Assembly: GCA_964648985.1 (NCBI GenBank)
Contig: CAZYMS010000004.1
Coordinates: forward strand, 2,793-66,792
Direction of reading: 5' to 3'
Length of the DNA: 64,000 bases
From: an uncultured Candidatus Saccharibacteria bacterium
GTDB taxonomy: Bacteria; Patescibacteriota; Doudnabacteria; UBA920
Part shown: positions 29,469-47,933 of the stretch, piece by piece
Numbering within the stretch: the stretch's first letter is position 1
Layout of the letters: the number at the start of each line of letters is the position of its first letter
The notes under the pieces: generated by a model
Database searches by the model: none
Seen by the model: only the letters and a program-made list of their open reading frames with translations
Told to the model about the DNA's origin: nothing
Translations under genes and position numbers: made by a program

Positions 29469-29469
29469 A

Positions 29470-30709
29470 CGTAATAAGAAATTGTTATAGAAATAAACAT
29501 GACAAATAAAGTTTTTTCTTAAGAGGAAACCCCGGACAAGCGGCCAGACAAGAAGCGTAAAAGTATTTCTGAGCGTAGCTGCTGTCCAAGAATGAATCGT
29601 GCCCAGACACGCCTCCTCGTCTTGGGGAATGTGTGACTCAAAAACTATGTCAAAACAGAACTTCGCAAAAGCCTTACCGAAACTTCTACCTGGTTGAAAC
29701 TAACACCGACCAAAAACCATGTGTACATTCAGATTGGAATACCACCGAATATCGCCTTAGTGATGCCGTCTCGAGGTTGAAGATCAATGCCAGTATCCAT
29801 ATCCGTAAGAAGCTCAAGTTAATTAGAGAGTTATACTTAGAAAAAGATGGCATGTGGAGTGTTGGAAACTGTATCACCTCGGTCGGTCTTGATGAAGGTA
29901 TAGTCAAAAAGCACATCGAATGGCAAGGCAAAAAAAGAGAAGCCCCGAACAATTTAGTTGTTCTAGGGCTTTTTCTATTTCGCCATGGCAGTTTTCATGC
30001 CGAGTTGGAAACCTGGGAAGGAAGTCGCTGTTGCGGAGGCTATGGTTGCTGGAAGGTGTCGGGTATAAAAGTTGGTTTCTTGCTTGCGCGGTTGGCTTTA
30101 TGGGCAGGGAAGTCGCGAGGGGTGTGTATAACTATGAATTAAAATAAGTACCAACAGAGCTCTTTTTATGTGGACAAGTCAGTACTAAGATTTTACTTAT
30201 ATTGCCTCAATAAGTGCCCAAGCGTGTCATGGGTGGCATGGTTAGAACCATCCAGGGTGGCTGCTCATGAACACTCTTTGGAATATGGCTGCAGGAATTC
30301 AATCCGTATAAAAGTAAGTGTTTCATGGGCTACCATAGGAAAGTATACTTTATATTCTGTACCTTCGGGTGGAATAAAAAAGTATCTCGGTTAGAAATCA
30401 GAATTATGAAATATGTAAAACACATTGCAGAAGGTGTTTAACGAACATGGAAAAAGTTTTTTTGGTGTTCCATGGGGGGGTCGAACAATTTAAAAAGTAA
30501 AATTATAACCTTTTTTGACTTGGGCGCTGCATGAATAATTCCTCATACAACAGGCCCCCTTGTACATAGAAAATAAGTAGGAATTTTCCAGACAGAAAAG
30601 CGAGAATTTCTTATACTTAATATAAGGAATGCAGCTCAAAAAGTAGTGCAAAAAGTCCTCGTTTGAAAGAAAAATCAGAATACAATTTATCAGTTATCAG
30701 ATACAAAAA
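29470..30709. other. 1.2-kb region with no convincing coding potential upstream of the giant gene. Candidate structured RNA(s), a long leader, or a gene remnant
   Basis: The only ORFs (e.g. 29633..30142) encode Trp/Cys-rich low-plausibility peptides. Local hairpins such as CCCAGAC-acgcctcctc-GTCTTGGG occur at 29602-29624. Confidence 0.2.
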
Positions 30710-33700
30710 ATGCCCCACATGCCGTCCGTAGTCAAACTTTTTTTCCTTGCCAGCTGCTTTGTGCTAGCTGGGTTTTTATTTCTAGCAAGTCCAATAAAAG
30801 CTGCTGTAGCTGAGGAGGTCGTTGCATCGTCGGAGACATCGCTTGCAGCACTAGTTCCCACCCAAGAAGTAGCTACAACTTCAGCTGAGGGAGTAGCAAG
30901 TGAGCCAGCTCCTACGGTAGTTGCAGAAGTCACTGTAAGTGAAGAAATAATCGATGCACCTGAAGCAGAAGCTGCCCCAGGTACTGAAGGCGCCGATGTT
31001 CCTGAGGCCACAACTCCAGCACCTGAAGCCAGCACTTCTACCTCCGAGGATGCCAGTGCCCAGGTGCTGATTGTTTCAGAAGCTACGGAGCAAGAAGGTG
31101 CATTAGATACTGCCCCGGATGTTGCTGAAGTTCCAGAAGAGTCGAGTGAAGAAGTGGTGCCCGAAATTATAGCAGCAGGGCCAGAGCAAGTTGCACAAAC
31201 TGAGGAAGCAGCATCAGTTGCAGAGAGCGGTGCGGCCCCAAGTGCAAAGTCCGCTCCAGAGGAAATAATTTCTGAAACTCCTGTTGCGGAAACCCCTGCT
31301 CAAGGCACAGAGATGACACCAGAGGTAGAAGTTCCAGCAGTGGAAGTTGCGGAGACAGCAAGTGAAATTTCTGTGGGAGAAGAATTGCCTGTAGCTGAAG
31401 TTACAGAAATTGCACAATCAACCGCGATTGAGGAAGCGCTAGAAACTGAGAGTGTGGCTCCAACAGTAGAAGAAAATATTTCTGAGACAGTAGAAGCAGA
31501 AACGGAAGTCGCATCTACTGTAGATGCGACACCAACAGTGGTAGAAGAATTTACCAGCAATGGAAAAACAGTGGTGGTATCTTCTACGGAAGAGCAAGAG
31601 CTGGTGCATCCTATGGTCAACGTTCCAGTAGGTACCGACATACCAGAAATATTTCGAGTGGGTCAGGAAGATCAGATAAAAATAAAATGGCAAAACAATG
31701 ATGGTCAGGAAATGCAGTTCACTGCGCTCGACACAAATGACAACGGATATATTGACCGTGTCGAGTGGATAGTGCCGCATCTTTCAACTCAAACGTTTGA
31801 AATTATTTATATTTCCAATGCGTTACTTTTGGACGAACATAAAAATACCGTTGGTGATATATACGGGCTTGTGGCGACGCAGGACCAAAACTATGCGAGC
31901 GTAACCAACGGGCAATTCGTGCGCGTAACATTTGAGCATATCTTAAATGAAAGTAGAGATATTACCCTCTATGCCAAGCCGGCGAATCCAGCAGAGCCAG
32001 CAACTATAGAAGCGTATACCGTAGACGGCCAGCGCATAGCTACGTTTGCAACCATAGACCATGACGGAAAATACAGAATAATTCTTCTGGGACTTTCCAA
32101 TCCTTCCGCAGTGTTCGATTTGAAAGTTACGGGCGCTGTTGATATTGACTTTATTATTGACCCACCGGCAAATGCGTATTGGGTTGGCGGCGCGGGTAAT
32201 TGGTCTGATGCTGCTAATCACTGGGCAACAACATCTGGTGGAGCCCCGGGCGCAGGTAATGCCCCTGATGCAACTAGTAATGTAATTTTTGATGCTTCTT
32301 CTGGGTCTGCTTCTGATATTGTGAATATTGATACCACTATAACTATTGGTTCGTTAGCTATAAATGGTTTTACTGGTACAATTTCTCAAAATGCAGATGT
32401 GAGCATAACTAATTCTGGCGGACAGTCAGGAAGTTATTCACAAACTTCAGCCGCTACTTGGACAGCGCCAGATCCTGGTACAGACACTTTTTCTGCTACT
32501 GGAAGTTTTTCGGTGACAGCTGGAACATTTAGGCGTTACACCGGAACAGGTATCAGCACCGATCCATTCGTAATTTATGACGTTTACGGCTTACAGGCAA
32601 TGAAAACCAATCTCGCAAATTCATATCGGTTAAATGGTAACATTGATGCATCTGTAACTACCGGTTGGAATTCTGGGGAAGGATTTGTACCAGTTGGAAC
32701 AAATATCACAAACTTTACTGGAAATTTTGATGGCGCAGGATTTGTTATAAGCGATTTATTTATTAACTCAACAACTTTAAGTTATGTTGGGTTATTTGGT
32801 TATACTCTTGGTAGTATTCAAGATTTGACATTGACTAATGCAGATATTACTGGTGTCGGGATTGCTGGGAGTAATGGATCCGATGGTGCAGCCGGAAGTT
32901 CCGGTACTACCCCAACTGTTGGTGGTACTGGTACTATTGGCACCGCCGGCAGTATTTTATATATTGGAGGTTTGGCGGGTTATAACGCTGGAACGATTAC
33001 TAATATTAGCATTTCTGGAACTGTAACTGGAACTGGCGGAGCAGGTGGTAATTCGGGTAATGGTGGTGCAGGCGGAAACACTACGAGCGGAGCAACTGTA
33101 TCTGGAGCAGGTGGTACTTCGTTAGCTGGCGGAGCGGGTGCAGTAGTATATAGCGGAGGTTTAATTGGCTACTCTGCTCAAGGTAGCATAAATGATTCTA
33201 GTTCTTCGGCAATCGTAACTGGAACTGGCGGAGCAGGTGGTAATTCGGGTAATGGTGGTGCAGGCGGAACTAATTCTGGTTCTGGTATTGGTGGCGCAGG
33301 TGGTGGAGTAGGTGCACCGGGTGTTGGTGGTATAAGTTATACAGGTGGTCTAATTGGTTGGGTCAACTCCGGTATTGTTGTAACATCTTTTGCAACCGGC
33401 AATGTTATTGCTGCTGGTGGAACGGGTGGTTCTGCCGGTGCGGCAGGCGTGGGTGGTGCTGGTGGTACAGCAGCTATTGGCGGCGCTGGCGGCGCTGGCG
33501 GTACGGGTGCAACTGGCGGCGCTAGTTTTGCTGGAGGTTTGGTTGGAAATAATTTAGGTAACATTCGTTTTGCTTCATATGCGACAGGGGATATAACTGC
33601 TACTGGAGGTACACCTGGGAATGGTTCTGCCGGAGGGACTGCAGGGGCAAGTGCAGTTGCAACTACTGGAACAGCTGCAACAGGGGGCGCCGGTGGCGTT

Positions 33701-36700
33701 GGTGGCGCCGGTGGTATTGCGTACGCTGGTGGTTTGGTTGGGCAAAATAATTCTGATGGTGTAGTTAGCGGTGTCACTGCTCCTAACTATGCGACAGGTG
33801 ACGTAACTGCAACTGGTTCAAACGGGCAAAATGGACAAGTTGGTGGAACTGGTGGGAGTGCAGCAGCCGGTACAGCGCATACAGGAGGTACTGGCGGCGC
33901 TGGTGGAACTGGCGGTGCTGGTGGTGGTGCGTACGCTGGTGGTTTGGTTGGGCTAAATACAGGAGTAATTTTAATTTCAAATTCTAATACTGGAACTGTG
34001 ACTGTTGTAGGTGGTACTGGCGGCGCTGGAGGTACTGGCGGCACAGGCGGTGCGAAAGGATCAAGTGGTTCTAATGGTGCAAATGGAGCATCTGGAACCG
34101 GTGGTTCCGCAAATGTAACTTCTTCTTATGTTGGTGGGTTAGTTGGGAGTAATGTTGGAGCAGTCCAAGATTCTTATTCCACAAACCCGGTTATAGGAAC
34201 CGGTGGTGCGGGTGGTAGTGGTGCAACTGGAGTAAATGGGTTAACGGGAATAGTCGGAGCTACCGGGGGAACTGGGGGTGCGGCTGGTGTTCTATATATT
34301 GGTGGTGTTGCCGGAAACAATACCTTGACTATTACCGGCAGCTATCACACAACTGGAGCAGTCACAGGTACTGCTGGCAGTGGTGGTTCGGCTGGCGCAG
34401 GTGGTGCCGGCGGCACTGGTGCGTTAGCAGGTGCAGGCGGGGTTGCTACAGTGGGGGCAATTATTTATGCGGGCGGCGTTATTGGAAACAACACAGGTAA
34501 TTCTCTTTTAAATGATTACTCAACATCTAACGTCACTGGAACTGGTGGAGCAGGAGGCAACGGAGCAAGCGGCGGAGTAGGCGCTACTAGTTTAGCTGGT
34601 ATAACAGGTACTGTTGGCGCAGTCGGCGGCATTGCGTATGTTGGTGGTGTAGTTGGTTATAGTTCTAATGGTGAAATTTTAGAATCTTATTCAACCGGTG
34701 ATGTAGTTGCTATCGGCGGCGCAGGGGGCACTGGCGGCAATGGTGGTGCCGGCGGAACTGGAGCAGCTTCTACTACTGGGGGTGCTGGTGCAAATGGAGC
34801 TATTGGCGGGGCAGGGGGCGCAGCATTCGGCGGCGGTGTTTTAGGTAACTATATACTAGGTCCAATTGGCGAAGTGCATAATACTGGTAACGTTACGGTT
34901 ACTGGGGGCACTGGTGGTAACGGTGGAGCTGGCGGCACTGGTGGTAACGGTGGCACCAATGCTGTTGGGGGCACTGGTGGTAACGGTGGAGCTGGCGGCG
35001 CAGGTGGTGTGGCAAATAGTGGTGGTATTGCCGGGCAGAGCACAGGTGTTATTAACGGTGTTTCATATTCTACTGGAAATATTACTGCGATAGCCGGAAC
35101 TCCTGGGAATGGTGGAGTAGGTGGTGCTGGCGGCTCAACTACTGCAACTTTTAATGCTACAGCTGCTGCGGCAGGTGGAACTGGTGGTGCCGGTGGCGCT
35201 GGAGCAATTGCCTATGCTGGGGGCTTGGTTGGAAACAATGCTAATACAATTATTAACTCATATGCTAGCGGTATAATTACAGCAACTGCTAGTGCAGGTA
35301 AAGATGGTGCGGCTGCTGGCAGTGCAGGTAATGGATCGGCTGGAGGATCAAGTCATGCTGGAGCAGTAGGTGCAACGGGCGGCGCTGGCGGCGCTGGAGC
35401 CGCTGCTTATGCAGGTGGCTTGGCTGGGTTAAATACTTCTACAATTACAAATTCATATATACAAACTGGTTCGGTAACGGCAACAGGTAGTATAGGGGGG
35501 AATGGAGCAGCTGGCGCTTCTGGTGGTGTTGGCGGTACGAGCGCAATAGGCGGTGTTGGTGGTGTTGGCGGCGTCGGTGGTGCTGGCGGTGTTGGTCATG
35601 CAGGTGGAGTTGCTGGCCATAACAACACTGGTGGTGTTGTTCAAGATGGGACTTATTCAAATGTTAACATCACTTCTCTTGGCGGTACTTCAGGCAATGG
35701 CGGCGCCGGTGGTGCTGGTGGGGTTCGTGCTGTTGGCGGCGCCGGTGGTGCGGTAGTAGCAGGTGCTATTGCCTATGCTGGCGGATTAGTTGGTTTGAAT
35801 ACAGCAACAATTGCAGATTCACACGCAACTGGAAATGTGACAGCTACCGCTGGCTCCGGTGGTTCTCCAGGTTCTGGTGGTAATGGTGGTAGTGGAACAA
35901 CTGGTGCGGCTGGTGGAGCTAGTGGTGCTACTGACGTAGCAGCTTCTGTTTTGCTTCGTATTGGCGGTGCCGCATATGCTGGCGGTTTACTGGGTTACAA
36001 TACAACAAATGGAATAATTCAAGGTACTTCTTATTCCACAGGTGATGCTACATCAACTGGTGGTGCGGGTGGTGCAGGAGCTAATGGAGCCAACGGTGGT
36101 AACTCATCTGGAGCAGTAGCTGGTGCCGCGGGCATAGCAGGTATTAGCGGTGGCGCGGGTGGAGTTGGTGCCGCGGGTGGATTGGTTGGTTGGAATATAG
36201 GCGTAGTGAGCCCTGCTTCTTATGCTCAAGGTGACGTAAGTGCAGCCGGCGGTGTTGGTGGATCGTCTGGAAGTGCTGGTACACCTGGTTCTAGCGGTGC
36301 TGGTATGGCTGGTGTTGCAGGAGTTGCTGGTGGCGCTGGTGGTATTGGTGGTGCCGCATATGCTGGCGGTGTAATTGGATACAATGGTGTTTTAGGTTCA
36401 ACAATTAGTACAGCAAATAATGTGGGCACTGTTGCTTCGATAGGCGGCGCGGGAGCTAATGGTGCTGTCGGTGGCGCTGGCGGCGCCGGGGGGAGTTCTA
36501 CTGGTGCAATTGGCGGAGCAGGTGGCGCTGGCGGAGCAGGTGGCGCTGGCGGAGCAGCTTACGGTGCCGGTGTTGCTGGTTTAAATATTGGATTAATTAA
36601 AGACGTAAATTATACAATCACTACTGTTACAGTTGTGGGCGGCGCTGCGGGTAATGGTGCTGTGGGCGGTAATGCTGGACCTTCAGGGAATATTTCTGGA

Positions 36701-39700: not shown

Positions 39701-42700
39701 AGTTATGCTGGTGGTTTAATTGGTAATAATAGAATCACAACAGGGTTAAGTGATGTGATCGGGTCTTATGCTACTGGCAATGTCACCAGTATTGGTGGTG
39801 TGGGAAGTACTGGAAGCTTGGGTGGTAACGGTGCAAATGGGGCAGCAAGTTCTGTTGGTGGTGCTGGCGGTGTTGGTGGTGCTGGCGGCATCGGCGGTGA
39901 AGCAGATGCCGGTGGTTTACTTGGGTATGGAAGCGTTACCAGTGGCGGTAGTAAATATTTTAATTCATACTCTACTGGTAATACTGTAACAGCCACTGGG
40001 GGCACTGGTGGTAACAGCGGTAGTGCCGGTACTGCCGGTAATGGAGGTTCTGGTGCTGCTGGTGGTGCAACTAGTGCAGCTGGGGTAGGTGGAACAGGCG
40101 GCGCAGCCTATGCTGGTGGACTAACTGCTCAACTGGTAGGCTCAGTTTTAATTACAACAAGTTATTCTACTAGAAACGTTTTGGCTACTGGGGGTGCTAG
40201 TGGTAACGGTGCAACTGGAGTTGCTGGAAGTACCGGCGGTTCTGGTGCTATAGGTGGCACTGGTGGGGCTGGTGGTACTGCTGGTGCTGGTGGTGCTAGT
40301 TATGCTGGTGGCTTAGTGGGAAGTAGTGCGGGGATTATTGGTGGTATTTCTTATGCGACTGGAAATGTCACTTCTAATGGAGGAGAAGCTGGGACTTCAG
40401 GTGCAGGCGGTGCAGGCGGCGCAAGTGGAAGTATTTCAGGTTCTACCGCCGCAACTGGTGGCGCAGGAGGTAGCGGTGGCGCAGGTGGTGCTAGTTATGC
40501 TGGTGGCTTAGTCGGAAACAACGGAGCAACTGGTATTATTTCATATTCTTATTCAACAGGTTCGGTGACTTCACTAGGTAGAAATGGCTCCAACGGTAAT
40601 ACTGGCGGCGCTGGTGGAGATGGTTCTAGCGGAACTGGAAACCATGTTGGTGGAACTGGTGGCGCAGGCGGCGCAGGTGGCGCAGGTGGCGCAAGTTATT
40701 CTGGTGGTTTAGTCGGAAACAATGTTAATACTACGAACACAATCACTACCAGTTACACATCAGGAAATGTAACTGGTACAAGCGGTACCGGTGGTAATGC
40801 TGGTATTGGTGGTGCAGGCGGTTTGGCTGGCAATGTTGGCGCTGGTGGTGCGGGCGGTGTCGGTGGCGCAGGTGGCGCAGCTGGGGTTTTGTATACTGGT
40901 GGGTTTGTTGGTTATAACGATGGGACTGTTCAATTATATTCTTATGCGACTGGGAATGTGAGTGGTACTGCTGGTGCCGGTGGTAATGGGTCTACTGGCG
41001 GTGTTGGTGCTGACGGCTTTGACGGTACAACCGCAAACGGTGGTGCTGGCGGCGTTGGTGGTGCAGGCGGCGCAGGCGGCGCTGGTGGTATTACTTATGG
41101 TGGTGGTTTTACAGGGTGGAATAATACGGCCAGAACAATTCGTGATTCATCATCAAGTGGAGACCTTATCCTAACTGGCGGCGCTGGCGGTAATGGAGGA
41201 ACTGGCGGTAATGGAGGAACTGGCGGTGATGGTGCTGCTGCCGGAACCGGAGGAACTGGCGGCGCAGCAGGAGCCCGCAGCGCTGGTATTGTAGGTGGTA
41301 TTACTTATGGTGGTGGATTTGCTGGATATAATTTAGGAACTTTATATGCAGATTATGCAGAAGGAAATGTGACAGTAAATGGTGGTGCTGGTGGTGCTGG
41401 TGGTAACGGCGGTACAGCAGGTGCTGGTGGTAACGGCGGCGCAACTGGAGCTGGGGGAGTTGGCGGTGCTCAAGGTGCTACTGCAGCAGGTGGTGCTGGT
41501 GGTGCATTGTATGCTGGTGGTTTTGCTGGCTACAATTTCACTGCTGGATTAATTCAGTATTCTTGGGCGTCAGGTGACATTACAACTGTAGGCGGTAATG
41601 GTGGTGCATCTGGAACAGCGGGAACTTCGGGTACTGGCGGCGCCGGTGGTACTCTTGCTGGCGGAGCCGGTGGCGCAGCGGTAGCCGGTGGCGCCGGTGG
41701 CGCAGGCGGCGCTAGTTTTGCCGGTGGATTCATCGGTGCAGATTTAACTACAGGAAGTTTTAATACAAGTTATGCTTCTGGTTCTGTAACTATGACGGGT
41801 GGTAATGGAGCTATGGGAGGAGTGGGGGGTGTTGGCGGACATGGAGGTACTGGTGGTTCTGGTGGGTCTGGTAATGGCGGTGCCGGAATAATTGGTGGTA
41901 CTGGAGGAGTTGGAGGAGTTGGAGGTGCTGTTACCGGCGGAGGTTTAGTTGGTCAGAACACTGGAACTATTTCTAATGCTTATGCTTTAGGTAGTGTGAC
42001 TGGGACTGCTGGCACTCCAGGTAATGGTGGCGCAGGCGGTAATGGCGGTAATGGCGGCACGGCTGGTGGTGGAACTGCTGGTTCTAATGGTAATGGCGGT
42101 GCCGGTGGCGCAGGCGGCGCTGGAGCCAATGCGCACATGGGAGGACTACTAGGTAGTCAAGCTACTTCTGTCATTACAAATGTTTATTCTTCTGGTGTGC
42201 CAACAGGAACTAAGACCACTGGTGCCACTGGTGGCGCTGGCGGTATTGCGGGAGTTGGTGGAACTGGCGGTAGTGGCGGTGCTTCTGGAGCAATAGGATC
42301 TTCTGCGTCTACCCAGTATGTTGGAGGTATCACCGGCTTACCAACAAGTGGAACATATGTCTCGACATATTGGGACACAACAACCTCCGGTTACGCAGCA
42401 GGGGATGGTGTTGGTAATGGTGCGGACCCGTCTGGTATGACCGGTAAGACAACCGCCGAAATGAAACAGGAAACTACTTTTGTAGGCTGGGACTTTACTT
42501 CTTTGATTTGGGATATAGATGAAAATAACACTTATCCATATTTTAGTTATCAAACAGTACCCGATTCACCAACTAATATTGTTGCTGTAGGTGGTAATGG
42601 TCAGGCCACGATTACATTTACCCCGCCTGTAGATAATGGCAGTTCTACCATCGTCAGTTACACTGTAACTTCTAATACTGGTGGCCACACAGCAATAGGT

Positions 42701-45700
42701 GGCGGTTCGCCAATTACGGTTACTGGTTTAACCAATGGTACAACCTATACCTTTACTGTTACAGCGACCAATGCTAACGGTACCAGTTCGGCTTCCGGCA
42801 CAAGCAATGCGGTTACACCTGCAACTGTCCCAGGTGCTCCTACAAATGTTTCTGCAGTACGGGGTAACGGACAAGCAACTATTACATTTACTGCTCCTGC
42901 TGGTAATGGCGGTTCAGCGATATTGTCGTACACAGTTACATCCAGTCCCGGCGGACTTACCGCTACTGGCGGCTCTTCGCCATTGGTTGTCACTGGTCTT
43001 TCAAATGGTACAACATACACTTTTACGGTTACCGCTACAAATAGTGCAGGTACAGGTGTTTCTTCAAGTTCAAGCAACTCTGTAACACCAGCAACAGTAC
43101 CTGGCGCTCCTACTGGTGTCACAGCTGTCGCAGGCAACGGACAAGCAACTATTACATTCACGGCTCCTCTAAGCAATGGTGGTGACCCTATTACTTCTTA
43201 TACCGTTACCTCAAGCCCAGGCGGATTTACAGCGACCGGCGGCAGCTCCCCAATTATCGTAACCGGACTTACGAATGGTACTGCATACACGTTTACTGTT
43301 GTGGCGACTAACACCATTGGAAATAGTACGTCATCTAGTACTAGTAATTCTGTAACACCAGCAACAGTACCTGGCGCTCCTACTGGTGTCACAGCTGTCG
43401 CAGGCAACGGACAAGCAACTATTACATTCACGGCTCCTCTAAGCAATGGTGGTGACCCTATTACTTCTTATACCGTTACCTCAAGCCCAGGCGGATTTAC
43501 AGCGACCGGCGGCAGCTCCCCAATTATCGTAACCGGACTTACGAATGGTACTGCATACACGTTTACTGTTGTGGCGACAAATGCGGTAGGTGATAGCAGT
43601 GCTTCTTCGAGCAGCAATGCGGTTACACCTGCAACTGTCCCAGGTGCTCCTACAAATGTTTCTGCAGTACGGGGTAACGGACAAGCAACTATTACATTTA
43701 CTGCTCCTGCTGGTAATGGCGGTTCAGCGATATTGTCGTACACAGTTACATCCAGTCCCGGCGGACTTACCGCTACTGGCGGCTCTTCGCCATTGGTTGT
43801 CACTGGTCTTTCAAATGGTACAACATACACTTTTACGGTAATAGCTACGAATGCAGTGGGAGACAGCAGTAGTTCAAGTGCAAGCAATTCAATTTCACCA
43901 GCCACAGTACCCGGCGCCCCTATAGTTGGTACGGCAACTGCTGGGGACGGCGAAGCAACTATTACATTTACACCACCAGCGAGTGACGGCAGTGCTGTCA
44001 TAACCAGCTACACCGTAACTTCCAGCCCTGGCGGGCTTACTGCCACTGGTGGTTCTTCACCGCTTATAGTTACAGGACTTACGAATGGTGTCACGTATAC
44101 GTTTACCGTAACAGCGACCAATGCTGTTGGGGTAAGTAGTGGCTCGAGCTCGAGTAATTCTGTGGTTCCAAAAACTATTCCCGGTGCTCCAACAGGTGTC
44201 ACCGCCGTTCGCGGAAATGGTGAAGCGACTATTACGTTTACTGCTCCGGTGAGCAACGGCGGCTCAGCCATAACCAGCTACACCGTTACTTCCAGCCCTG
44301 GCGGCTTTACCGCAACCGGCGGATCTTCGCCAATCACGGTAACAGGTTTGACCAACGGTACAACATATACGTTTACGGTGACTGCGACAAATGCTGCTGG
44401 TACGAGCATTGCTTCTAGCTCGAGTAACTCAGTTATTCCTGCTACGGTGCCCGGTGCACCTACAGCCGTAACCGCCGTTCGCGGAAATGGTGAAGCCTCT
44501 GTTTCATTTACTGCGCCTATTAGCAACGGCGGTTCGGCAATAACCGGCTATACCGTTACTTCCAGCCCGGGCGGCATAACCGCTAGTGGCGGTTCTTCGC
44601 CAATAGTTATAACTGGTCTTTCAAATGGCACTGCATACACGTTTACGGTAGTGGCAACAAATGCTATAGGTAGTAGCGCTGCTTCGAGCTCCAGTAATTC
44701 AATCACTCCTGCTGCTGTGCCAGGCGCGCCAACAAGTGTTGCTGCTGTTGCGGGTAATGGCGAAGCAATCATTTCATTTACTGCGCCGCTTGACAATGGG
44801 AGTGCTGCCATAACTAGCTACACCGTTACTTCCAGCCCTGGCGGCTTTACCGCAACCGGTGGTTCTTCGCCACTCATTGTGACAGGTTTAACCAACGGCG
44901 TAACATATACGTTTACCGTTACCGCAACGAATGCAGTTGGTACGAGCATTGCATCCAGCTCCAGTAATTCCATAGTGCCTGCAACAGTACCAGGTGCGCC
45001 AACTTCAGTAACCGCCGTTCGCGGAAATGGTGAAGCGACTATTACATTTACTGCTCCGGTGAGCAACGGCGGTTCAGTCATTACCGGTTACACCGTTACT
45101 TCCAGCCCTGGCGGCTTTACTGCCACTGGTGGTTCTTCACCGCTTATAGTTACAGGACTTACGAATGGTGTCACGTATACGTTTACCGTTACTGCAACGA
45201 ATGGCATTGGTACGAGCATAACTTCCAGCTCATCCAATTCAGTGGTACCAGCAACAGTGCCCGGTGCTCCAACAGCCGTAACCGCCGTTCGCGGAAATGG
45301 TGAAGCGACTATTACATTTACTGCTCCGGTGAGCAACGGCGGTTCAGTCATTACCGGTTACACCGTTACTTCCAGCCCTGGCGGCTTTACCGCAACCGGC
45401 GGATCTTCGCCAATCACGGTAACAGGTTTGACCAACGGTACAAGTTACACCTTTACGGTAGTGGCCACGAATGCAGTGGGCTCGAGTAGTAACTCAGGTG
45501 CAAGTAGCGCAGTAACTCCTGCTACTGTGCCGGATGCGCCTATAAACGTAGCGGGAACAATTGGTGATGGTAGTGTTACTGTGTCCTTCACAACCCCGGT
45601 ATCGAATGGTGGCTCCGCAATAACCAGCTACACGGTTACTTCGAACATTGGCGGCTTTTTTGCCACCGGTAGTTCATCGCCTCTTACAGTGACTGGTTTA

Positions 45701-47245
45701 ACCAATGGAGTTACCTATACGTTTACCGTAACCGCCACGAATAGTCTCGGAACTAGTACGAGTTCAGGGACAAGTGCTGGCTTGACTCCCGCAAGTGTCC
45801 CGGGTGTTCCAACCAACCTTGCCTCTACCAGTGGAGATACAAGTGTTGCACTGTCATGGTCCGCGCCGGTAAGTAACGGAGGCTCTGCAGTTACCGATTA
45901 TGTTATTGAATACAAATTAACCAGTGGCGGTACATGGTCAGTGTTTGCCGATGGGGTCGGTGCTGGACTTTCTGCTACGGTAACGGGCCTCGCAAATGAT
46001 AACTCGTATGATTTTAGGGTCAGTGCCAAGAACGCTGCAGGACAAGGTGCAAGCACTAATTCTGTGAGTGAAACACCAGCACCACCAGCGCAGGTACTTA
46101 TACAAAGCTTTACCGATCTGACTGCCCCGACTGTAGCAGCTGCAGTACGTATTACAAACGAAGGGGCAACTGCCTACGAGTATCAATACACGTGGTGTGT
46201 TACTGACGCACAAGCAAATGTGTGCGGCGGTGGCGATGATGTGTTCTCTTCCACAGCTGCAAAGCTTATCCAGTCCGGCGAGAACTTTGATGCTACGCTG
46301 AACTCGACGATTTCGACTCCTGGAAACTATTGGTTTCACCTAAATGTACAATTTGGTTCTGATTCTTCTGAAGCAGTACAATCTTTTACTGCAATAGCCG
46401 CAACACCAGTTGTTACTCCACCGGGCGGTGGAGGTGGTGGAGGTGGTGGGGGCGGATCTACGGGCGGTGGGGGAGTAATAGTAAGTCCACAGCCTACTCC
46501 GGTAACGACTGTCCCCGTAGGTGGGGCTGGTACAGGCGAGGCTCATCCAAACGGTACGCTTATATATGATGGTAATACATTTTATATTCTTTCTGCAGGT
46601 CAGCGAGTAGGGTTTAGAAATGAGCAAGAATATAAATCGTACGGATATACCTTTGATCAGGCTGTGCCCGCTTCCTTGTACGATAAAGCACTTCCTGAAC
46701 ACGGAATTAATAAAGCTATGGAGGGTACATTGGTGTTGGATGCGACCGATGGCAGAACAGTGTATATGATAGGCGCGGGTAGTACAAAGCGCGGTTTTGT
46801 TTCTGCCGCAGTATTTAAGGCGCTTGGGTATAGCTATACAAACCTGCCAAAAATAAATCTATCCGACTATCCAACCGGAATACCGATTGGCAGTGCAAAA
46901 CTACCACATCCGGATGGCTCACTCGTTATGCAAGGTAAAACTATTTGGTGGATTCGCAATGGGCAAAAAACCGGCTTCGAGACAATGGCAGTATTCAACA
47001 CATACGGCTTTAGCCTTTCAAGAGTGGTAAAAGCGAACGCTGCAGATGTAGCGTTGCCCGAAGGCCCCATTGTTAAGTTCCGCGATGGAACCTTGGTTTT
47101 GGACCAGCGGACCTATCATCTTATATCGGATGGTAAAAAGCTGGCATTCACTTCCGACAGTCAACTCATACAGCTTGGTTATAATATTGTACGAGCAGTG
47201 TTAGCTAGTCTGTATACCTATGAATCAGGTGGAGTAGTGAAGTAA
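30710..47245 (+). CDS. giant (5511 aa) secreted multi-domain surface protein. Order of domains: signal peptide/TM, acidic Glu/Ala/Thr/Val-rich region, GLUG lead-in domain, more than 45 GLUG-motif repeats with poly-Gly (GGAGG) spacers, 13 FN3 repeats, poly-Gly hinge, four C-terminal ~55-aa repeats
   Basis: Lead-in 'YDVYGLQAMKTNLANSYRLNGNIDAS...FTGNFDGAGFVISDLFIN...VGLFGYT' and repeated 'YxGGLVGxNxGxIxNSYATGNVTG' are GLUG-family signatures. 'GKTTAEMKQETTFVGWDFTSLIWDIDENNTYPYF' is the usual GLUG-region terminus. FN3 units are 'PGAPTxVTAVxGNGxATITFTAP..NGGS.ITSYTVTSSPGG.TATGGSSP..VTGLTNGT.YTFTV.ATN'. The ORF is uninterrupted. Confidence 0.85.
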   Translation: MPHMPSVVKLFFLASCFVLAGFLFLASPIKAAVAEEVVASSETSLAALVPTQEVATTSAEGVASEPAPTVVAEVTVSEEIIDAPEAEAAPGTEGADVPEATTPAPEASTSTSEDASAQVLIVSEATEQEGALDTAPDVAEVPEESSEEVVPEIIAAGPEQVAQTEEAASVAESGAAPSAKSAPEEIISETPVAETPAQGTEMTPEVEVPAVEVAETASEISVGEELPVAEVTEIAQSTAIEEALETESVAPTVEENISETVEAETEVASTVDATPTVVEEFTSNGKTVVVSSTEEQELVHPMVNVPVGTDIPEIFRVGQEDQIKIKWQNNDGQEMQFTALDTNDNGYIDRVEWIVPHLSTQTFEIIYISNALLLDEHKNTVGDIYGLVATQDQNYASVTNGQFVRVTFEHILNESRDITLYAKPANPAEPATIEAYTVDGQRIATFATIDHDGKYRIILLGLSNPSAVFDLKVTGAVDIDFIIDPPANAYWVGGAGNWSDAANHWATTSGGAPGAGNAPDATSNVIFDASSGSASDIVNIDTTITIGSLAINGFTGTISQNADVSITNSGGQSGSYSQTSAATWTAPDPGTDTFSATGSFSVTAGTFRRYTGTGISTDPFVIYDVYGLQAMKTNLANSYRLNGNIDASVTTGWNSGEGFVPVGTNITNFTGNFDGAGFVISDLFINSTTLSYVGLFGYTLGSIQDLTLTNADITGVGIAGSNGSDGAAGSSGTTPTVGGTGTIGTAGSILYIGGLAGYNAGTITNISISGTVTGTGGAGGNSGNGGAGGNTTSGATVSGAGGTSLAGGAGAVVYSGGLIGYSAQGSINDSSSSAIVTGTGGAGGNSGNGGAGGTNSGSGIGGAGGGVGAPGVGGISYTGGLIGWVNSGIVVTSFATGNVIAAGGTGGSAGAAGVGGAGGTAAIGGAGGAGGTGATGGASFAGGLVGNNLGNIRFASYATGDITATGGTPGNGSAGGTAGASAVATTGTAATGGAGGVGGAGGIAYAGGLVGQNNSDGVVSGVTAPNYATGDVTATGSNGQNGQVGGTGGSAAAGTAHTGGTGGAGGTGGAGGGAYAGGLVGLNTGVILISNSNTGTVTVVGGTGGAGGTGGTGGAKGSSGSNGANGASGTGGSANVTSSYVGGLVGSNVGAVQDSYSTNPVIGTGGAGGSGATGVNGLTGIVGATGGTGGAAGVLYIGGVAGNNTLTITGSYHTTGAVTGTAGSGGSAGAGGAGGTGALAGAGGVATVGAIIYAGGVIGNNTGNSLLNDYSTSNVTGTGGAGGNGASGGVGATSLAGITGTVGAVGGIAYVGGVVGYSSNGEILESYSTGDVVAIGGAGGTGGNGGAGGTGAASTTGGAGANGAIGGAGGAAFGGGVLGNYILGPIGEVHNTGNVTVTGGTGGNGGAGGTGGNGGTNAVGGTGGNGGAGGAGGVANSGGIAGQSTGVINGVSYSTGNITAIAGTPGNGGVGGAGGSTTATFNATAAAAGGTGGAGGAGAIAYAGGLVGNNANTIINSYASGIITATASAGKDGAAAGSAGNGSAGGSSHAGAVGATGGAGGAGAAAYAGGLAGLNTSTITNSYIQTGSVTATGSIGGNGAAGASGGVGGTSAIGGVGGVGGVGGAGGVGHAGGVAGHNNTGGVVQDGTYSNVNITSLGGTSGNGGAGGAGGVRAVGGAGGAVVAGAIAYAGGLVGLNTATIADSHATGNVTATAGSGGSPGSGGNGGSGTTGAAGGASGATDVAASVLLRIGGAAYAGGLLGYNTTNGIIQGTSYSTGDATSTGGAGGAGANGANGGNSSGAVAGAAGIAGISGGAGGVGAAGGLVGWNIGVVSPASYAQGDVSAAGGVGGSSGSAGTPGSSGAGMAGVAGVAGGAGGIGGAAYAGGVIGYNGVLGSTISTANNVGTVASIGGAGANGAVGGAGGAGGSSTGAIGGAGGAGGAGGAGGAAYGAGVAGLNIGLIKDVNYTITTVTVVGGAAGNGAVGGNAGPSGNISGSTGATAGTGGVGGIGGAVFIGGLAGDNPGVIHNSTVVGSLSASNKAGGNGGNGGIGGDGSLGTGSHNGGVGGLGGAGGASGALYMGGLAGQGNGNISDSSSTGGTMTVAQSVGGGNGGNGGNGGTAGTGGRNGTGGAGGAGGVTGAMFVGGAIGHNSLANVTFDNIFSTNNIVISADDGGDGGAGANGANGAIGGIGGAGGAGGVTQTTATNAGGLIGDVTGAGTSILNSYATGNVTVVGDSGGTGATGGAGGNGAAGMTGGAGAVGGAGGSGGYVYGGGLIGFTSTNAYVGSSHATGNVTITAGSGGAAGNGGAGGAGGSASVGGAGAIGGAGGVGGISNVGGLVGYATSGIIVDSYSTGAVQGTSGNGGNSGNGGAGGSGGSGAIGGAGGAGTVGAAGGASFTGGLIGDHAITIETSYHTTGAVTSYSGNGGAGGAGGAGGASGNITNGTAAIGGAGGAGGAGGALHAGGLVGRNNAVTGIINNSYATSNVNGVGGNGGAGGAGGAGGDGSSGTNHIGGAGGAGGAGGAAAIAVASSLQIGGLVGSNLLGTITNSYAQTGTVTATGGAGGASSQGGVGGTGTGTALYGIGGAGGIGGAGGGIYAGGLVGYTTGVIQTGSYSKTSIDVTGGAGANGSDGRSAAANSGVAGSAGGAGGASGIVYAGGLVGYATSDIISSYASFHAGSGKGNIVVNGGVAGNGGSGGDGGSGLVGGSVGGAGGVGGAGGAETGSFVGGLSGYISATGVITDSYSENLTITGAEQPGGAGGDGGSGGTGVGTFVGGIGAVGGAGGAGGVRAFGGLVGDNLGTIQSGSYSNVNITVVGGAGGDGGSGGNGGTSGSSVSSGTAAAGGVGGAGGAGAATYGGGLVGRMSGTTQLLQILNSYATGSVTVVGGLGGNGGNGGNGGNGSTGTSTHIGSVGALGGAAGVGGEADAGGLVGMSNFSSGTSNFLYTYATGNVSSTGGNSGAAGTSGNGGASRTTIAGGAGGGAVAGVAGGASYAGGLIGNNRITTGLSDVIGSYATGNVTSIGGVGSTGSLGGNGANGAASSVGGAGGVGGAGGIGGEADAGGLLGYGSVTSGGSKYFNSYSTGNTVTATGGTGGNSGSAGTAGNGGSGAAGGATSAAGVGGTGGAAYAGGLTAQLVGSVLITTSYSTRNVLATGGASGNGATGVAGSTGGSGAIGGTGGAGGTAGAGGASYAGGLVGSSAGIIGGISYATGNVTSNGGEAGTSGAGGAGGASGSISGSTAATGGAGGSGGAGGASYAGGLVGNNGATGIISYSYSTGSVTSLGRNGSNGNTGGAGGDGSSGTGNHVGGTGGAGGAGGAGGASYSGGLVGNNVNTTNTITTSYTSGNVTGTSGTGGNAGIGGAGGLAGNVGAGGAGGVGGAGGAAGVLYTGGFVGYNDGTVQLYSYATGNVSGTAGAGGNGSTGGVGADGFDGTTANGGAGGVGGAGGAGGAGGITYGGGFTGWNNTARTIRDSSSSGDLILTGGAGGNGGTGGNGGTGGDGAAAGTGGTGGAAGARSAGIVGGITYGGGFAGYNLGTLYADYAEGNVTVNGGAGGAGGNGGTAGAGGNGGATGAGGVGGAQGATAAGGAGGALYAGGFAGYNFTAGLIQYSWASGDITTVGGNGGASGTAGTSGTGGAGGTLAGGAGGAAVAGGAGGAGGASFAGGFIGADLTTGSFNTSYASGSVTMTGGNGAMGGVGGVGGHGGTGGSGGSGNGGAGIIGGTGGVGGVGGAVTGGGLVGQNTGTISNAYALGSVTGTAGTPGNGGAGGNGGNGGTAGGGTAGSNGNGGAGGAGGAGANAHMGGLLGSQATSVITNVYSSGVPTGTKTTGATGGAGGIAGVGGTGGSGGASGAIGSSASTQYVGGITGLPTSGTYVSTYWDTTTSGYAAGDGVGNGADPSGMTGKTTAEMKQETTFVGWDFTSLIWDIDENNTYPYFSYQTVPDSPTNIVAVGGNGQATITFTPPVDNGSSTIVSYTVTSNTGGHTAIGGGSPITVTGLTNGTTYTFTVTATNANGTSSASGTSNAVTPATVPGAPTNVSAVRGNGQATITFTAPAGNGGSAILSYTVTSSPGGLTATGGSSPLVVTGLSNGTTYTFTVTATNSAGTGVSSSSSNSVTPATVPGAPTGVTAVAGNGQATITFTAPLSNGGDPITSYTVTSSPGGFTATGGSSPIIVTGLTNGTAYTFTVVATNTIGNSTSSSTSNSVTPATVPGAPTGVTAVAGNGQATITFTAPLSNGGDPITSYTVTSSPGGFTATGGSSPIIVTGLTNGTAYTFTVVATNAVGDSSASSSSNAVTPATVPGAPTNVSAVRGNGQATITFTAPAGNGGSAILSYTVTSSPGGLTATGGSSPLVVTGLSNGTTYTFTVIATNAVGDSSSSSASNSISPATVPGAPIVGTATAGDGEATITFTPPASDGSAVITSYTVTSSPGGLTATGGSSPLIVTGLTNGVTYTFTVTATNAVGVSSGSSSSNSVVPKTIPGAPTGVTAVRGNGEATITFTAPVSNGGSAITSYTVTSSPGGFTATGGSSPITVTGLTNGTTYTFTVTATNAAGTSIASSSSNSVIPATVPGAPTAVTAVRGNGEASVSFTAPISNGGSAITGYTVTSSPGGITASGGSSPIVITGLSNGTAYTFTVVATNAIGSSAASSSSNSITPAAVPGAPTSVAAVAGNGEAIISFTAPLDNGSAAITSYTVTSSPGGFTATGGSSPLIVTGLTNGVTYTFTVTATNAVGTSIASSSSNSIVPATVPGAPTSVTAVRGNGEATITFTAPVSNGGSVITGYTVTSSPGGFTATGGSSPLIVTGLTNGVTYTFTVTATNGIGTSITSSSSNSVVPATVPGAPTAVTAVRGNGEATITFTAPVSNGGSVITGYTVTSSPGGFTATGGSSPITVTGLTNGTSYTFTVVATNAVGSSSNSGASSAVTPATVPDAPINVAGTIGDGSVTVSFTTPVSNGGSAITSYTVTSNIGGFFATGSSSPLTVTGLTNGVTYTFTVTATNSLGTSTSSGTSAGLTPASVPGVPTNLASTSGDTSVALSWSAPVSNGGSAVTDYVIEYKLTSGGTWSVFADGVGAGLSATVTGLANDNSYDFRVSAKNAAGQGASTNSVSETPAPPAQVLIQSFTDLTAPTVAAAVRITNEGATAYEYQYTWCVTDAQANVCGGGDDVFSSTAAKLIQSGENFDATLNSTISTPGNYWFHLNVQFGSDSSEAVQSFTAIAATPVVTPPGGGGGGGGGGGSTGGGGVIVSPQPTPVTTVPVGGAGTGEAHPNGTLIYDGNTFYILSAGQRVGFRNEQEYKSYGYTFDQAVPASLYDKALPEHGINKAMEGTLVLDATDGRTVYMIGAGSTKRGFVSAAVFKALGYSYTNLPKINLSDYPTGIPIGSAKLPHPDGSLVMQGKTIWWIRNGQKTGFETMAVFNTYGFSLSRVVKANAADVALPEGPIVKFRDGTLVLDQRTYHLISDGKKLAFTSDSQLIQLGYNIVRAVLASLYTYESGGVVK
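42797..43028 (+). repeat. FN3 repeat copy A: a 232-nt exact direct repeat of 43617..43848
   Basis: Identical nucleotide strings seen in sequence. Confidence 0.8.
43081..43318 (+). repeat. FN3 repeat copy B: a 238-nt exact tandem direct repeat of 43351..43588
   Basis: Identical nucleotide strings seen in sequence. Confidence 0.8.
43351..43588 (+). repeat. FN3 repeat copy B' (exact duplicate of 43081..43318)
   Basis: see above. Confidence 0.8.
43617..43848 (+). repeat. FN3 repeat copy A' (exact duplicate of 42797..43028)
   Basis: see above. Confidence 0.8.
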
Positions 47246-47262: not shown

Positions 47263-47295
47263 AAAAAATGCTCGCTATATATGGTGAGCATTTTT
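47263..47295 (+). terminator. rho-independent terminator of the giant gene (AAAAAATGCTC-loop-GAGCATTTTT)
   Basis: Perfect 10-bp stem plus a T5 tract, 18 nt after the stop. Confidence 0.6.
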
Positions 47296-47331: not shown

Positions 47332-47933
47332 ATGAGAAAAATAATACTGTTCATGGTTATATCCCTTGATGGTTTTGTCGGGGGGCCGCAGAGTGAACTA
47401 GACTTTGAAATTCGCGATGAAGAGATTGGTCGGTTTTTAATTCCAGCCCTTTTGCAAAATGTAGATAGCATGGTTATGGGCCATGGGCTCTACAAAGGGT
47501 TTACCCAGGCCTGGCCTGCTATGGCGAAAGACCTCAATAGTCCGGCAGACTTAGTAGAATTTGCTCAGGGGGTCGAAAATTCCCCAAAGTACGTATTTCA
47601 CACACCGCTGCTGAGTCGCTCGATAATGACGAGTGGAAAAATACTACCATGATTCAAGCGCAGGGCGACGAAGAAGTTAGGGCTGAAATAACAAAGTTAA
47701 AACAAAGTTCAGGAAAAGATATTGTGCTCTTTGGTGGTGTGCGCATGGCGCAAACCTTAGTACGCTTAGGGCTAGTAGACGAATATCGTTTTAAGATTCA
47801 ACCAATGGCACTTGGTGCTGGACAGCCGCTCTTTGTAGGTCTCACCCAGCGGGCTAACTTAAAGCTTACATTCTCCAAAGTGTTCGATTCGGGGTGGTTG
47901 CACTTTACTACGTGCCTAAACAATAATCATTGA
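47332..47933 (+). pseudogene. dihydrofolate-reductase-family (RibD C-terminal domain) gene interrupted by a frameshift near 47617-47622
   Basis: The first ORF 'MRKIILFMVISLDGFVGGPQSELDF...' and the second ORF, when extended upstream as 'DNDEWKNTTMIQAQGDEEVRAEITKLKQSSGKDIVLFGGVRMAQTLVRLGLVDEYRFKIQPMALGAGQPLF', together reconstruct one ~185-aa RibD_C/DHFR-family protein. Confidence 0.6.

What the first reader, a model, noticed from the sequence alone, without database searches (positions are those of the whole stretch)
30710..47245. 5511-aa GLUG-repeat giant surface protein with poly-glycine spacers
One uninterrupted 16.5-kb ORF codes for a signal peptide, a ~250-aa acidic low-complexity segment, a GLUG lead-in domain and more than 45 GLUG motifs. 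Each GLUG motif is separated from the next by a GGAGGxGG glycine tract. These are followed by 13 FN3 repeats, a PPGGGGGGGGGGGSTGGGG hinge and four copies of a ~55-aa C-terminal module. GLUG proteins with this many repeats and collagen/PGRS-like poly-Gly spacers are unusual. The protein is probably an adhesin or a surface-layer fibre.
Basis: partly seen in the sequence, partly recalled or inferred. Interest (0 to 1): 0.6.

Follow-up and report, generated by a model that had tools for sequence, protein, structure and literature searches.

The report
Giant finned beta-helix surface fibre protein
This is a real 5511-residue surface protein of an ultra-small (CPR/Patescibacteria) bacterium: its shaft is a GLUG-type beta-helix in which each of 50 rungs carries a conserved, probably ordered glycine-rich hairpin, a composite repeat I found only in its direct orthologues.

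Summary
ORF 30710-47245 encodes 5511 aa: a signal peptide, an acidic segment (60 D+E, 1 K+R), a head domain, a GLUG lead-in, 49 composite units plus a terminal half-unit, 13 FN3 domains, an Ig-like domain, a poly-Gly hinge and a four-copy C-terminal module.

- **Repeat number is ordinary.** Other GLUG proteins have 40-79 motifs at a 25-34 aa period.
- **The glycine tracts do not behave as loose spacers.**
  - They are (xGG)n hairpins of about 34 aa with period 3.
  - Their glycines have dN/dS 0.02-0.03 against orthologues, and indels are almost absent.
  - pLDDT is 88-97.

At least 21 related loci carry exactly 50 units, matching unit for unit, so assembly collapse is excluded for this array. 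FN3 number varies (5 to at least 23). The C-terminal anchor is swapped for dockerin or PG_binding_1 in orthologues.

Best reading: a Sec-exported, C-terminally wall-anchored fibre with a beta-helix shaft carrying a polyglycine-II-like fin. An adhesive role is inferred, not shown. It is a new variant of a known kind.

The parts
30710..47245 (+). Whole gene: 5511 codons plus stop, about 500 kDa product
   Evidence: dN/dS well below 1 against orthologues.
30710..30802 (+). Signal-peptide-like N-terminus (aa 1-31)
   Evidence: Read from the sequence: basic n-region, 17-residue hydrophobic core, IKA|A site. No predictor was run.
30803..31561 (+). Acidic low-complexity segment (aa 32-284)
   Evidence: 60 D+E against 1 K+R; rich in A/E/V/S/P/T. 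Shorter and different in orthologues.
31562..32176 (+). Conserved head domain (aa 285-489) with an EF-hand-like loop DTNDNGYIDRVE
   Evidence: Relatives in CPR and in DPANN archaea. Weak EF-hand Pfam hits. No PDB sequence relative.
32177..32776 (+). Pre-helix and GLUG lead-in region (aa 490-689)
   Evidence: Homologous to the N-terminal region of canonical GLUG proteins carrying PF07581/PF05342 (P0029, P0030, P0041).
32777..42313 (+). 49 composite units (aa 690-3868). Each is a GLUG core of about 30 aa plus an (xGG)n hairpin of about 34 aa.
   Evidence: Fold. Conservation.
42314..42544 (+). Terminal GLUG half-unit and C-terminal cap (aa 3869-3945; YWD...GKTTAEMK...WDF...YPYF)
   Evidence: The same cap motif occurs in the canonical GLUG protein P0030.
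42545..46078 (+). 13 FN3 domains at 90-aa spacing. Twelve are similar (57-92% identical); the thirteenth is divergent.
   Evidence: Pfam fn3 E 5.7e-122, 13 stretches.. The 100%-identical duplication at 43079-43578.
46079..46417 (+). Ig-like domain with two Cys (aa 5124-5236), conserved in orthologues whatever the anchor
   Evidence: Second hit group.
46418..46474 (+). Poly-Gly hinge PPGGGGGGGGGGGSTGGGG
   Evidence: Poly-Gly at the same place in L059, L065 and L069.
46544..47242 (+). Four copies of a 55-61 aa module (aa 5279-5511), the putative wall anchor
47264..47295 (+). Hairpin 19 nt after the stop, flanked by an A-run and a U-run (terminator-like)
   Evidence: RNA fold -16.8 kcal/mol, z -4.7. 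The consensus terminator scan did not call it.

Best explanation
The gene encodes a Sec-exported cell-surface fibre of about 500 kDa from a Patescibacteria (CPR) bacterium.

**Proposed arrangement.**
- The C-terminal four-copy module holds the protein non-covalently on the cell wall.
- A poly-Gly hinge, an Ig-like domain and a stalk of FN3 domains project outward. FN3 number differs between orthologues.
- The stalk carries a rigid right-handed beta-helix of GLUG type with a fixed 50 rungs. At 4.8 A per rung this is about 24 nm.
- The shaft ends in a conserved head domain with a putative Ca-binding loop, followed by a strongly acidic tail.

**The new feature.** Each rung leaves the helix as a hairpin of about 34 residues made of xGG triplets. 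These hairpins are ordered. They most likely form polyglycine-II helices that stack from rung to rung into a flat sheet, or 'fin', along the shaft.

**Likely role.** Reaching and binding a host cell or surface.

**Shown:** the architecture, the GLUG/beta-helix fold assignment, the conservation pattern and the modular anchor.

**Inferred:** PGII geometry, wall binding, orientation and adhesive function.
For: **Gene and domains.** ORF and layout. FN3 x13. GLUG above threshold on a two-unit piece.

**Lead-in.** It is homologous to proteins annotated PF07581/PF05342.

**Fold of six units.**
- AF2 model: pLDDT 82.3, pTM 0.82, three strands per core.
- The best hit, 3n6z, aligns 173 residues, about 6 x 29. 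That matches the combined size of the six cores.

**Gly halves.**
- Composition: 50% G, 19% A, 1.3% charged, 0.26% Pro.
- The non-Gly autocorrelation is 0.60, 0.47 and 0.41 at lags 3, 6 and 9.
- pLDDT is 88-97 with no helix or strand assigned by DSSP.
- The top Foldseek hits are PPII/PGII-bundle springtail antifreeze proteins, but weakly (E 0.01).

**Constraint across orthologues.**
- Gly positions are 88-97% conserved; X positions 35-72%.
- Only 0-17 of about 1500 Gly-half residues fail to align.
- dN/dS is 0.017-0.031 at Gly positions, 0.16-0.18 at X positions and 0.07-0.09 in cores, with dS at or above 1.

**Fixed array.**
- Exactly 50 units in 16 genome loci and 5 metagenome loci.
- Unit i best matches unit i in 50/50, 48/50, 46/50 and 36/50 cases.

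**Anchor end.**
- The module fold resembles EccB1 repeats, PlyCB and endolysin wall-binding domains.
- The module is shared by many CPR secreted proteins, including a second protein in this window.
- Orthologues carry dockerin (30.3 bits) or PG_binding_1 (21.4 bits) at the same position after the same Ig-like domain and hinge.
Against: - No coordinates were available, so PGII geometry was not measured.
- The Foldseek matches to PGII proteins are not significant (E at or above 0.01, TM 0.34-0.44) and partly reflect composition.
- The AF2 alignment had only 8 rows, all taken from the same protein. High confidence on repetitive Gly sequence may be over-optimistic.
- No expression, localisation or binding data exist.
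- No conserved neighbouring gene points to a function.
- Variable FN3 number argues against a fixed overall reach.
Confidence: 0.6

Rival explanations
1. Beads on a string: the glycine tracts are flexible, disordered spacers between GLUG elements. The protein would then be an extensible, brush-like tether.
For: Very high Gly content. DSSP assigns no helix or strand there. The Pfam PGRS and Collagen matches are only sub-threshold. Poly-Gly is used as a genuine hinge elsewhere in the same protein.
Against: - A 30-residue GLUG core cannot fold alone. In the model the cores stack contiguously.
- Disordered linkers tolerate indels and substitutions. Here unit lengths are kept one by one and indels are almost absent.
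- Gly positions have dN/dS of 0.02-0.03, lower than the beta-helix cores.
- The strict period 3 is not needed for flexibility.
Confidence: 0.12
2. The same fibre architecture, but its job is not host adhesion. It could be a structural envelope or sheath component, or a binder of a flat inorganic or ice surface through the glycine-rich face, as in springtail antifreeze proteins.
For: The top Foldseek hits are PGII-bundle antifreeze proteins. The Gly halves expose small A/T/S/N/V side chains and almost no charge. Nothing in the data identifies a ligand.
Against: The Foldseek hits are not significant. I obtained no habitat information that points to ice or to any particular surface. X positions drift between orthologues at 35-72% identity, which does not suggest a precisely patterned ice-binding face. 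At about 500 kDa it is far larger than S-layer subunits usually are (general knowledge).
Confidence: 0.15
3. The beta-helix is catalytic, for example a polysaccharide lyase, hydrolase or epimerase, or a depolymerase like phage tailspikes. The protein would then be a surface enzyme.
Against: Those hits reflect the generic fold. The best hits are the non-catalytic GLUG helices of IgA1 proteases. Pfam found no catalytic family anywhere in the protein. Fifty uniform rungs with a Gly hairpin on each leave no obvious substrate groove.
Confidence: 0.06
4. Assembly artefact: the ORF is a chimera, or its repeat number is wrong.
For: Short-read assemblies of orthologues often break or frameshift in this gene. 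The FN3 region holds a 100%-identical 1.9-copy duplication.
Against: - GLUG units are only 44% identical to each other on average, 62% at most. TRF finds no unit-length DNA repeat.
- 21 independent assemblies give the same 50 units with the same individual lengths.
- The whole array evolves under purifying selection.
- Only the FN3 count (13) remains uncertain. Orthologues range from 5 to at least 23.
Confidence: 0.03

Closest known systems
GLUG-motif beta-helix proteins (Pfam PF07581). Examples: the N-terminal beta-helix of Gram-positive M26 IgA1 metalloproteases (PDB 7jgj, 7uvk) and BACOVA_03286 (3n6z).
   Same: - The motif xYxGGLxGxNxGxIxxSYxTGxV.
- The lead-in region and the YWD...WDF...YP cap.
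- A Pfam hit above threshold on a short piece.
- Giant members with 40-79 motifs are common.
   Different: - Canonical period is 25-34 aa (147 of 150 top proteins). Here it is 65 aa, because each rung carries a Gly-rich hairpin of about 34 aa.
- The pneumococcal helix is described as lacking protruding elements (PMC7695701).
- There is no protease domain here.
PGRS domains of mycobacterial PE_PGRS proteins
   Same: Glycine triplet repeats of the GGA/GGN type, with Ala and Asn among the commonest non-Gly residues. PGRS domains are proposed and AlphaFold-predicted to form polyglycine-II sandwiches with Gly pointing inward (PMC9436101). The period-3 pattern and the much stronger conservation of Gly than of X positions are consistent with that proposal.
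   Different: No PE domain, and a Sec-type signal rather than PE-dependent ESX export. Pfam PGRS is only sub-threshold in 4 of 50 units (E at or above 0.18). Here the triplet runs are short hairpins regularly interleaved with beta-helix rungs, not a free-standing sail. The array is fixed rather than polymorphic.
Springtail / snow-flea antifreeze proteins (PGII/PPII helix bundles; PDB 7jjv, 2pne, 3bog)
   Same: They are the only solved folds that Foldseek ranks first for the six-unit model. They are Gly-rich triplet repeats that form flat two-layer bundles.
   Different: The matches are not significant (E 0.01-1.1, TM 0.34-0.44). Those proteins are 81-126 residues long and free-standing, with no beta-helix. 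There is no evidence for ice binding here.
Beta-helical and repeat-stalk surface adhesins (PfbA 3zpp, L. reuteri SRRP 5nxk, UpaB 6bea, Fap2 9qe7, HMW1 2odl, EtpA 8cpk)
   Different: No LPXTG, autotransporter barrel, TPS domain or T1SS signal. The anchor is a CPR-specific module, and the rungs carry Gly hairpins.
Wall-binding repeat domains: EccB1 periplasmic repeats, PlyCB, and the wall-binding domains of enterococcal endolysins LysIME-EF1 and Lys170

Membership tests
GLUG-motif proteins (Pfam PF07581) | Match to the PF07581 profile at or above the gathering score | tested here: met
   26.1 bits against 20.5 on a two-unit piece. 7 of 50 single units match at E<=1, best 1.4e-5. No hit on 1000-1600 aa pieces.
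GLUG-motif proteins (Pfam PF07581) | Conserved lead-in region before the first motif and the YWD/WDF cap after the last | tested here: met
   The region aa 285-760 hits proteins annotated PF07581, some with PF05342, at E 1e-33 to 1e-35, aligned over the lead-in. The cap motif is seen in P0030 and here.
GLUG-motif proteins (Pfam PF07581) | Motifs stack as rungs of a right-handed parallel beta-helix | tested here: met
GLUG-motif proteins (Pfam PF07581) | Head-to-tail motifs with a period of about 27-30 aa | tested here: not met
   Median period is 65 aa here. It is 25-34 aa in 147 of the 150 best-scoring GLUG-type proteins. This is the variant feature.
Fibronectin type III (PF00041) | Profile match above threshold, tandem domains of about 90 aa | tested here: met
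   398.6 bits, E 5.7e-122, 13 stretches. Regular 90-aa spacing.
PE_PGRS / PGRS repeats (PF21526) | PGRS profile match together with an N-terminal PE domain | tested here: not met
   PGRS matches only 4 of 50 units at E at or above 0.18. No PE domain in any Pfam scan.
Collagen triple helix (PF01391) | G-X-Y triplets, Pro-rich, profile match above 27.2 bits | tested here: not met
   13-15.4 bits. Two Gly per triplet and 0.26% Pro.
Polyglycine-II bundle folds (springtail antifreeze type) | Left-handed three-residue-per-turn helices packed in flat layers with Gly facing inward | tested here: inconclusive
   Period-3 xGG pattern. Gly-specific constraint. High pLDDT with no DSSP helix or strand. Top but non-significant Foldseek hits 7jjv, 3bog and 2pne. 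Backbone angles could not be measured.
RTX / type I secreted giant adhesins | GGxGxD nonapeptide Ca-binding repeats and a C-terminal secretion signal | tested here: not met
   The Gly halves hold 12 Asp in about 1530 residues. The protein has an N-terminal signal peptide instead. No RTX family appears in Pfam.
Peptidoglycan- or wall-binding anchor modules | Fold similarity to known wall-binding domains and demonstrated wall binding | tested here: inconclusive

The most novel reading that the evidence does not exclude
The 50 Gly hairpins stack in register, one per 4.8-A rung, which is also the packing distance of polyglycine-II helices. They would form a continuous two-layer polyglycine-II sheet running the whole length of a beta-helix. 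No solved structure I know of shows such a hybrid 'finned solenoid'. Rung number and rung identity are frozen across a CPR clade because the fin, not only the tip, is the functional surface. Candidate roles are docking onto a host envelope or lateral self-association of fibres.
Probability: 0.35. Interest if true: 0.75.

Novelty: new variant of a known kind. Interest (0 to 1): 0.6.

Why it matters
CPR/Patescibacteria are ultra-small bacteria, and those studied appear to live attached to other cells. How they hold on is largely unknown. This protein is a large investment for a small genome: 16.5 kb, against 977 kb for the one complete related chromosome seen here. It is conserved rung for rung in more than 20 related genomes.

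Structurally, it would be a natural case of polyglycine-II elements built at regular intervals into a beta-solenoid. That bears on the debated structure of mycobacterial PGRS domains, and it offers a long, regular and highly constrained model system.

Practically, public protein sets largely miss the family. Assemblies and gene callers break it up, and composition filters hide its Pfam signature.

Tried and rejected
- **Pfam on long pieces.** No GLUG hit. This was a false negative, resolved with short pieces.
- **Overlapping six-unit windows as an alignment for AF2 (A3).** MAFFT aligned the rows by their true overlap, out of register. I discarded A3 and used eight windows instead (A4; two of them share one unit).
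- **Word-indexed homologue search with four composite units.** Only three weak, frame-shifted fragments were returned, probably because Gly-rich words swamped the candidate set. It was uninformative on distribution.
- **afdb50 fold library.** Unavailable.
- **Exact look-up of a neighbouring gene to find the source sample.** Not on record.
- **PDB sequence searches.** No relatives for the head and lead-in region, the unit profile or a head-domain profile.
- **Conserved operon partner.** Upstream synteny is seen only in L003 and L030, so no partner emerged.
- **Link to the nearby reverse transcriptase as a diversity-generating retroelement.** No direct repeats of 40 nt or more in 17000-30700.
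- **Rfam and tRNA scans of the window.** Empty.
- **Consensus terminator scan after the stop.** Nothing found. Folding shows a strong hairpin.
- **Collagen, RTX and PE_PGRS membership.** Each was considered and rejected; see the membership test.
- **Taxon below phylum.** Record labels for close relatives disagree: Doudnabacteria for L003 and Saccharibacteria for L030, both syntenic with the window. I claim only Patescibacteria/CPR.
Full report
**1. Observation**

The window holds one uninterrupted ORF at 30710..47245 (+), 5511 aa and about 500 kDa. Its GC content and GC skew rise across the repeat region because of GGN codons.

- a signal-peptide-like N-terminus, aa 1-31, read by eye;
- an acidic low-complexity segment, aa 32-284, with 60 D+E against 1 K+R;
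- a globular region and GLUG lead-in, aa 285-689;
- a long array of GLUG-like motifs alternating with glycine tracts;
- 13 FN3 domains (Pfam fn3 E 5.7e-122, 13 stretches) at exact 90-aa spacing;
- the hinge PPGGGGGGGGGGGSTGGGG, aa 5237-5255;
- four copies of a 55-61 aa module, aa 5279-5511.

A strong hairpin follows the stop codon by 19 nt (-16.8 kcal/mol, z -4.7). The simple terminator scan did not call it.

**2. The repeat array**

A profile HMM built from clean units finds 49 in-register units from aa 690 to 3868, plus a terminal half-unit. The median period is 65 aa, range 56-72. The consensus is xYxGGLxGxNxGxxxxxSYxTGxVTxTGGxGGNGGxGGxGGxGxxxxxGGxGGxGGAGGAGGx.

Each unit has two halves. 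The GLUG core is about 30 aa. The glycine-rich half has a median of 34 aa, with 50% Gly, 19% Ala, 1.3% charged residues, 0.3% aromatic and 0.26% Pro.

Pfam GLUG behaves awkwardly:

- no hit on 1000-1600 aa pieces;
- 26.1 bits against a 20.5 cut-off on a two-unit piece;
- 7 of 50 single units at E<=1.

**3. Is it a GLUG beta-helix?**

Three lines agree.

- **Sequence.** The lead-in region is homologous to proteins annotated PF07581, and in some cases PF05342 (Peptidase_M26_N). Those proteins have ordinary 27-30 aa GLUG repeats.
- **Model.** An AlphaFold2 model of six units has pLDDT 82.3 and pTM 0.82, with three strands per core.

173 aligned residues is six times 29. That matches the combined size of the six cores, so the Gly halves appear to lie outside the helix. 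The pneumococcal helix is described as lacking protruding elements (PMC7695701), so the excursions are what is new here.

**4. What are the glycine halves?**

They are runs of xGG triplets. The non-Gly indicator autocorrelates at 0.60, 0.47 and 0.41 at lags 3, 6 and 9. Each is arranged as two arms of about 15-17 residues around a loop of about 5 residues.

In the model they have no DSSP helix or strand, yet they carry the highest confidence: pLDDT is 88-97 in 10-residue blocks.

Across orthologues:

- the glycine positions are 88-97% conserved, while the X positions drift to 35-72%;
- only 0-17 of about 1500 residues fail to align;
- against three orthologues with dS at or above 1, dN/dS is 0.017-0.031 at Gly positions, 0.16-0.18 at X positions and 0.07-0.09 in the cores.

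Flexible spacers would not be held this tightly. The pattern fits a fold in which glycine is sterically required at two of every three positions, that is polyglycine-II helices. The same has been proposed, and predicted by AlphaFold, for mycobacterial PGRS domains (PMC9436101).

Foldseek's top hits for the model are the PPII/PGII-bundle springtail antifreeze proteins 7jjv, 3bog and 2pne. They are not significant (E 0.01-1.1). I could not obtain coordinates, so PGII geometry remains an inference.

From general knowledge, the rise per beta-helix rung and the packing distance of PGII helices are both about 4.8 A. Hairpins of successive rungs could therefore stack into a continuous sheet along the shaft.

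**5. Is the number of repeats unusual, and is the array an artefact?**

A profile search of 1.84 billion representative proteins found 12,688 proteins at E<=0.001 and 364 at E<=1e-30. Many are giants with 40-79 GLUG stretches. Repeat number as such is ordinary.

In 149 of the best 150, the best-scoring stretch stays within profile positions 1-44, mostly 1-32. In 147 of 150 the period is 25-34 aa. None has the 65-aa composite unit.

The library is incomplete for this family. Full-length orthologues would score above 950 bits with default filters, yet they are absent from the list. 'Restricted to this clade' is therefore provisional.

A scan of GTDB species genomes with the N-terminal region returned 57 loci. 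About 30 are clear orthologues at 56-79% identity, all with Patescibacteria/CPR labels. They include a complete chromosome, CP066698.1.

- Sixteen genome loci and five metagenome loci carry exactly 50 units with the same period and the same Gly fraction, 0.34-0.36.
- Units are positionally orthologous. Unit i best matches unit i in 50/50 (L001), 48/50 (L011), 46/50 (L016) and 36/50 (L027) cases.
- Unit lengths are conserved one by one. They are identical for 49 of 50 units in L001.
- Within the protein, units are only 44% identical on average, 62% at most.

The array is ancient, fixed and not homogenised. Assembly collapse or chimerism is excluded for it.

**6. The variable parts**

- **FN3 number differs.** Counts are 5, 12, 20 and at least 23 in orthologues, against 13 here.
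- **FN3 count here is uncertain.** Within the window, two FN3 pairs are 90-92% identical, and 43079-43578 is a 100%-identical 1.9-copy DNA repeat.
- **Anchors differ.** After the FN3 array, all orthologues keep the same Ig-like domain with two cysteines and a poly-Gly hinge. The last module then varies:
  - the four-copy module here;
  - a dockerin in L059 and L065 (PF00404, 30.3 bits, tested on the L059 tail);
  - a PG_binding_1-like domain in L069 (21.4 bits against a 23 cut-off).

**7. The C-terminal module**

AlphaFold folds this region (A2 query, aa 5261-5511) at mean pLDDT 92.4. The strands and short helices recur along it.

A search with aa 5081-5511 gave 181 proteins at E<=0.001. One group, with CPR labels, carries the module at 49-67% identity behind other N-terminal domains. 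The 1101-aa secreted protein at 13904-17209 in this window ends with two copies of it (by eye).

Together with the anchor swapping, this makes the C-terminus the cell-proximal, wall-holding end. That is an inference.

**8. Mechanism proposed**

The protein is Sec-exported, held on the wall by the C-terminal module and hinged by poly-Gly.

- It extends through an FN3 stalk, about 45 nm if 13 x 3.5 nm.
- The stalk carries a rigid 50-rung finned beta-helix, about 24 nm.
- The helix presents the head domain. That domain has an EF-hand-like loop, DTNDNGYIDRVE, with only weak Pfam EF-hand hits.
- The head domain is followed distally by the acidic tail.

Each rung keeps its own identity across species, and FN3 number does not. 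The helix-plus-fin is therefore probably a functional surface rather than a spacer.

An adhesive role towards a host or a surface fits what is reported of the CPR lifestyle, but it is untested. No conserved neighbouring gene informs function.

**9. Comparison and novelty**

It is a member of the GLUG beta-helix kind. Three of four defining features are met. The fourth, the period, fails because of the inserted hairpin.

It is not a PE_PGRS, collagen or RTX protein; defining features were tested and not met. It may work like PGRS and springtail-antifreeze PGII folds in its glycine half.

I found no literature on GLUG proteins with such insertions, nor on this CPR family.

**Verdict:** a new variant of a known kind, of moderate-to-high interest. 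The interest lies mainly in the predicted hybrid fold and the frozen 50-rung architecture.

Noticed in passing
window 31562-32176 (aa 285-489); loci L035-L042: The head domain has relatives at 33-43% identity over about 200 aa in contigs labelled DPANN archaea (Woesearchaeota, Pacearchaeota, Nanoarchaeota). It also occurs in CPR proteins that continue into a Fib_succ_major domain instead of a GLUG helix. This is a module shared across domains of life by ultra-small organisms.
   Followed up: partly
window 13904-17209 (+): A 1101-aa secreted protein in a GC-rich stretch (0.50-0.55) ends with two copies of the same C-terminal module as the giant protein. It has a weak Big_13 hit.
   Followed up: partly
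window 11139-13253 (+): A 704-aa protein combines an F-box-associated (FBA, PF04300, 79 bits) domain with Big_13 and a C-terminal PG_binding_1. From general knowledge, FBA is mainly a eukaryotic glycan-binding domain, so it is unexpected in a CPR bacterium.
   Followed up: no
window 22209-23189 (+): A reverse-transcriptase gene (RVT_1, E 4e-7). No direct repeats of 40 nt or more in 17000-30700, so there is no obvious template/variable repeat pair of a diversity-generating retroelement.
   Followed up: partly
window 29633-30142 (+): An IS200-like Y1 transposase fragment lies about 570 nt upstream of the giant gene (20 bits, below Pfam's cut-off of 23).
   Followed up: no
window 43079-43578: 1.9 copies of the 270-nt FN3 unit at 100% DNA identity. 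This is either a very recent duplication or a place where short reads could miscount copies.
   Followed up: partly
L059, L065, L069 (orthologue 3' ends): Orthologues keep the Ig-like domain and poly-Gly hinge but end in a dockerin (L059, L065) or a PG_binding_1-like domain (L069) instead of the four-copy module.
   Followed up: yes
P0343 and P0344 (same 98-kb NCBI contig); L007, L021: Public gene calls for orthologues are broken into frame-shifted fragments with out-of-frame W/R/C-rich stretches. Two genome loci have premature stops after 46 and 38 units. The family is therefore poorly represented in protein databases.
   Followed up: partly
window 47332-47933 (+): Two overlapping small ORFs follow the giant gene. 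The second matches only positions 122-195 of RibD_C, and the first has no Pfam hit. This may be a split or degraded gene.
   Followed up: no
L003 and L030 against the window: The two loci that share upstream genes with the window (79-88% protein identity) are labelled Doudnabacteria and Saccharibacteria respectively. Record-level taxon names for this clade are therefore unreliable.
   Followed up: partly
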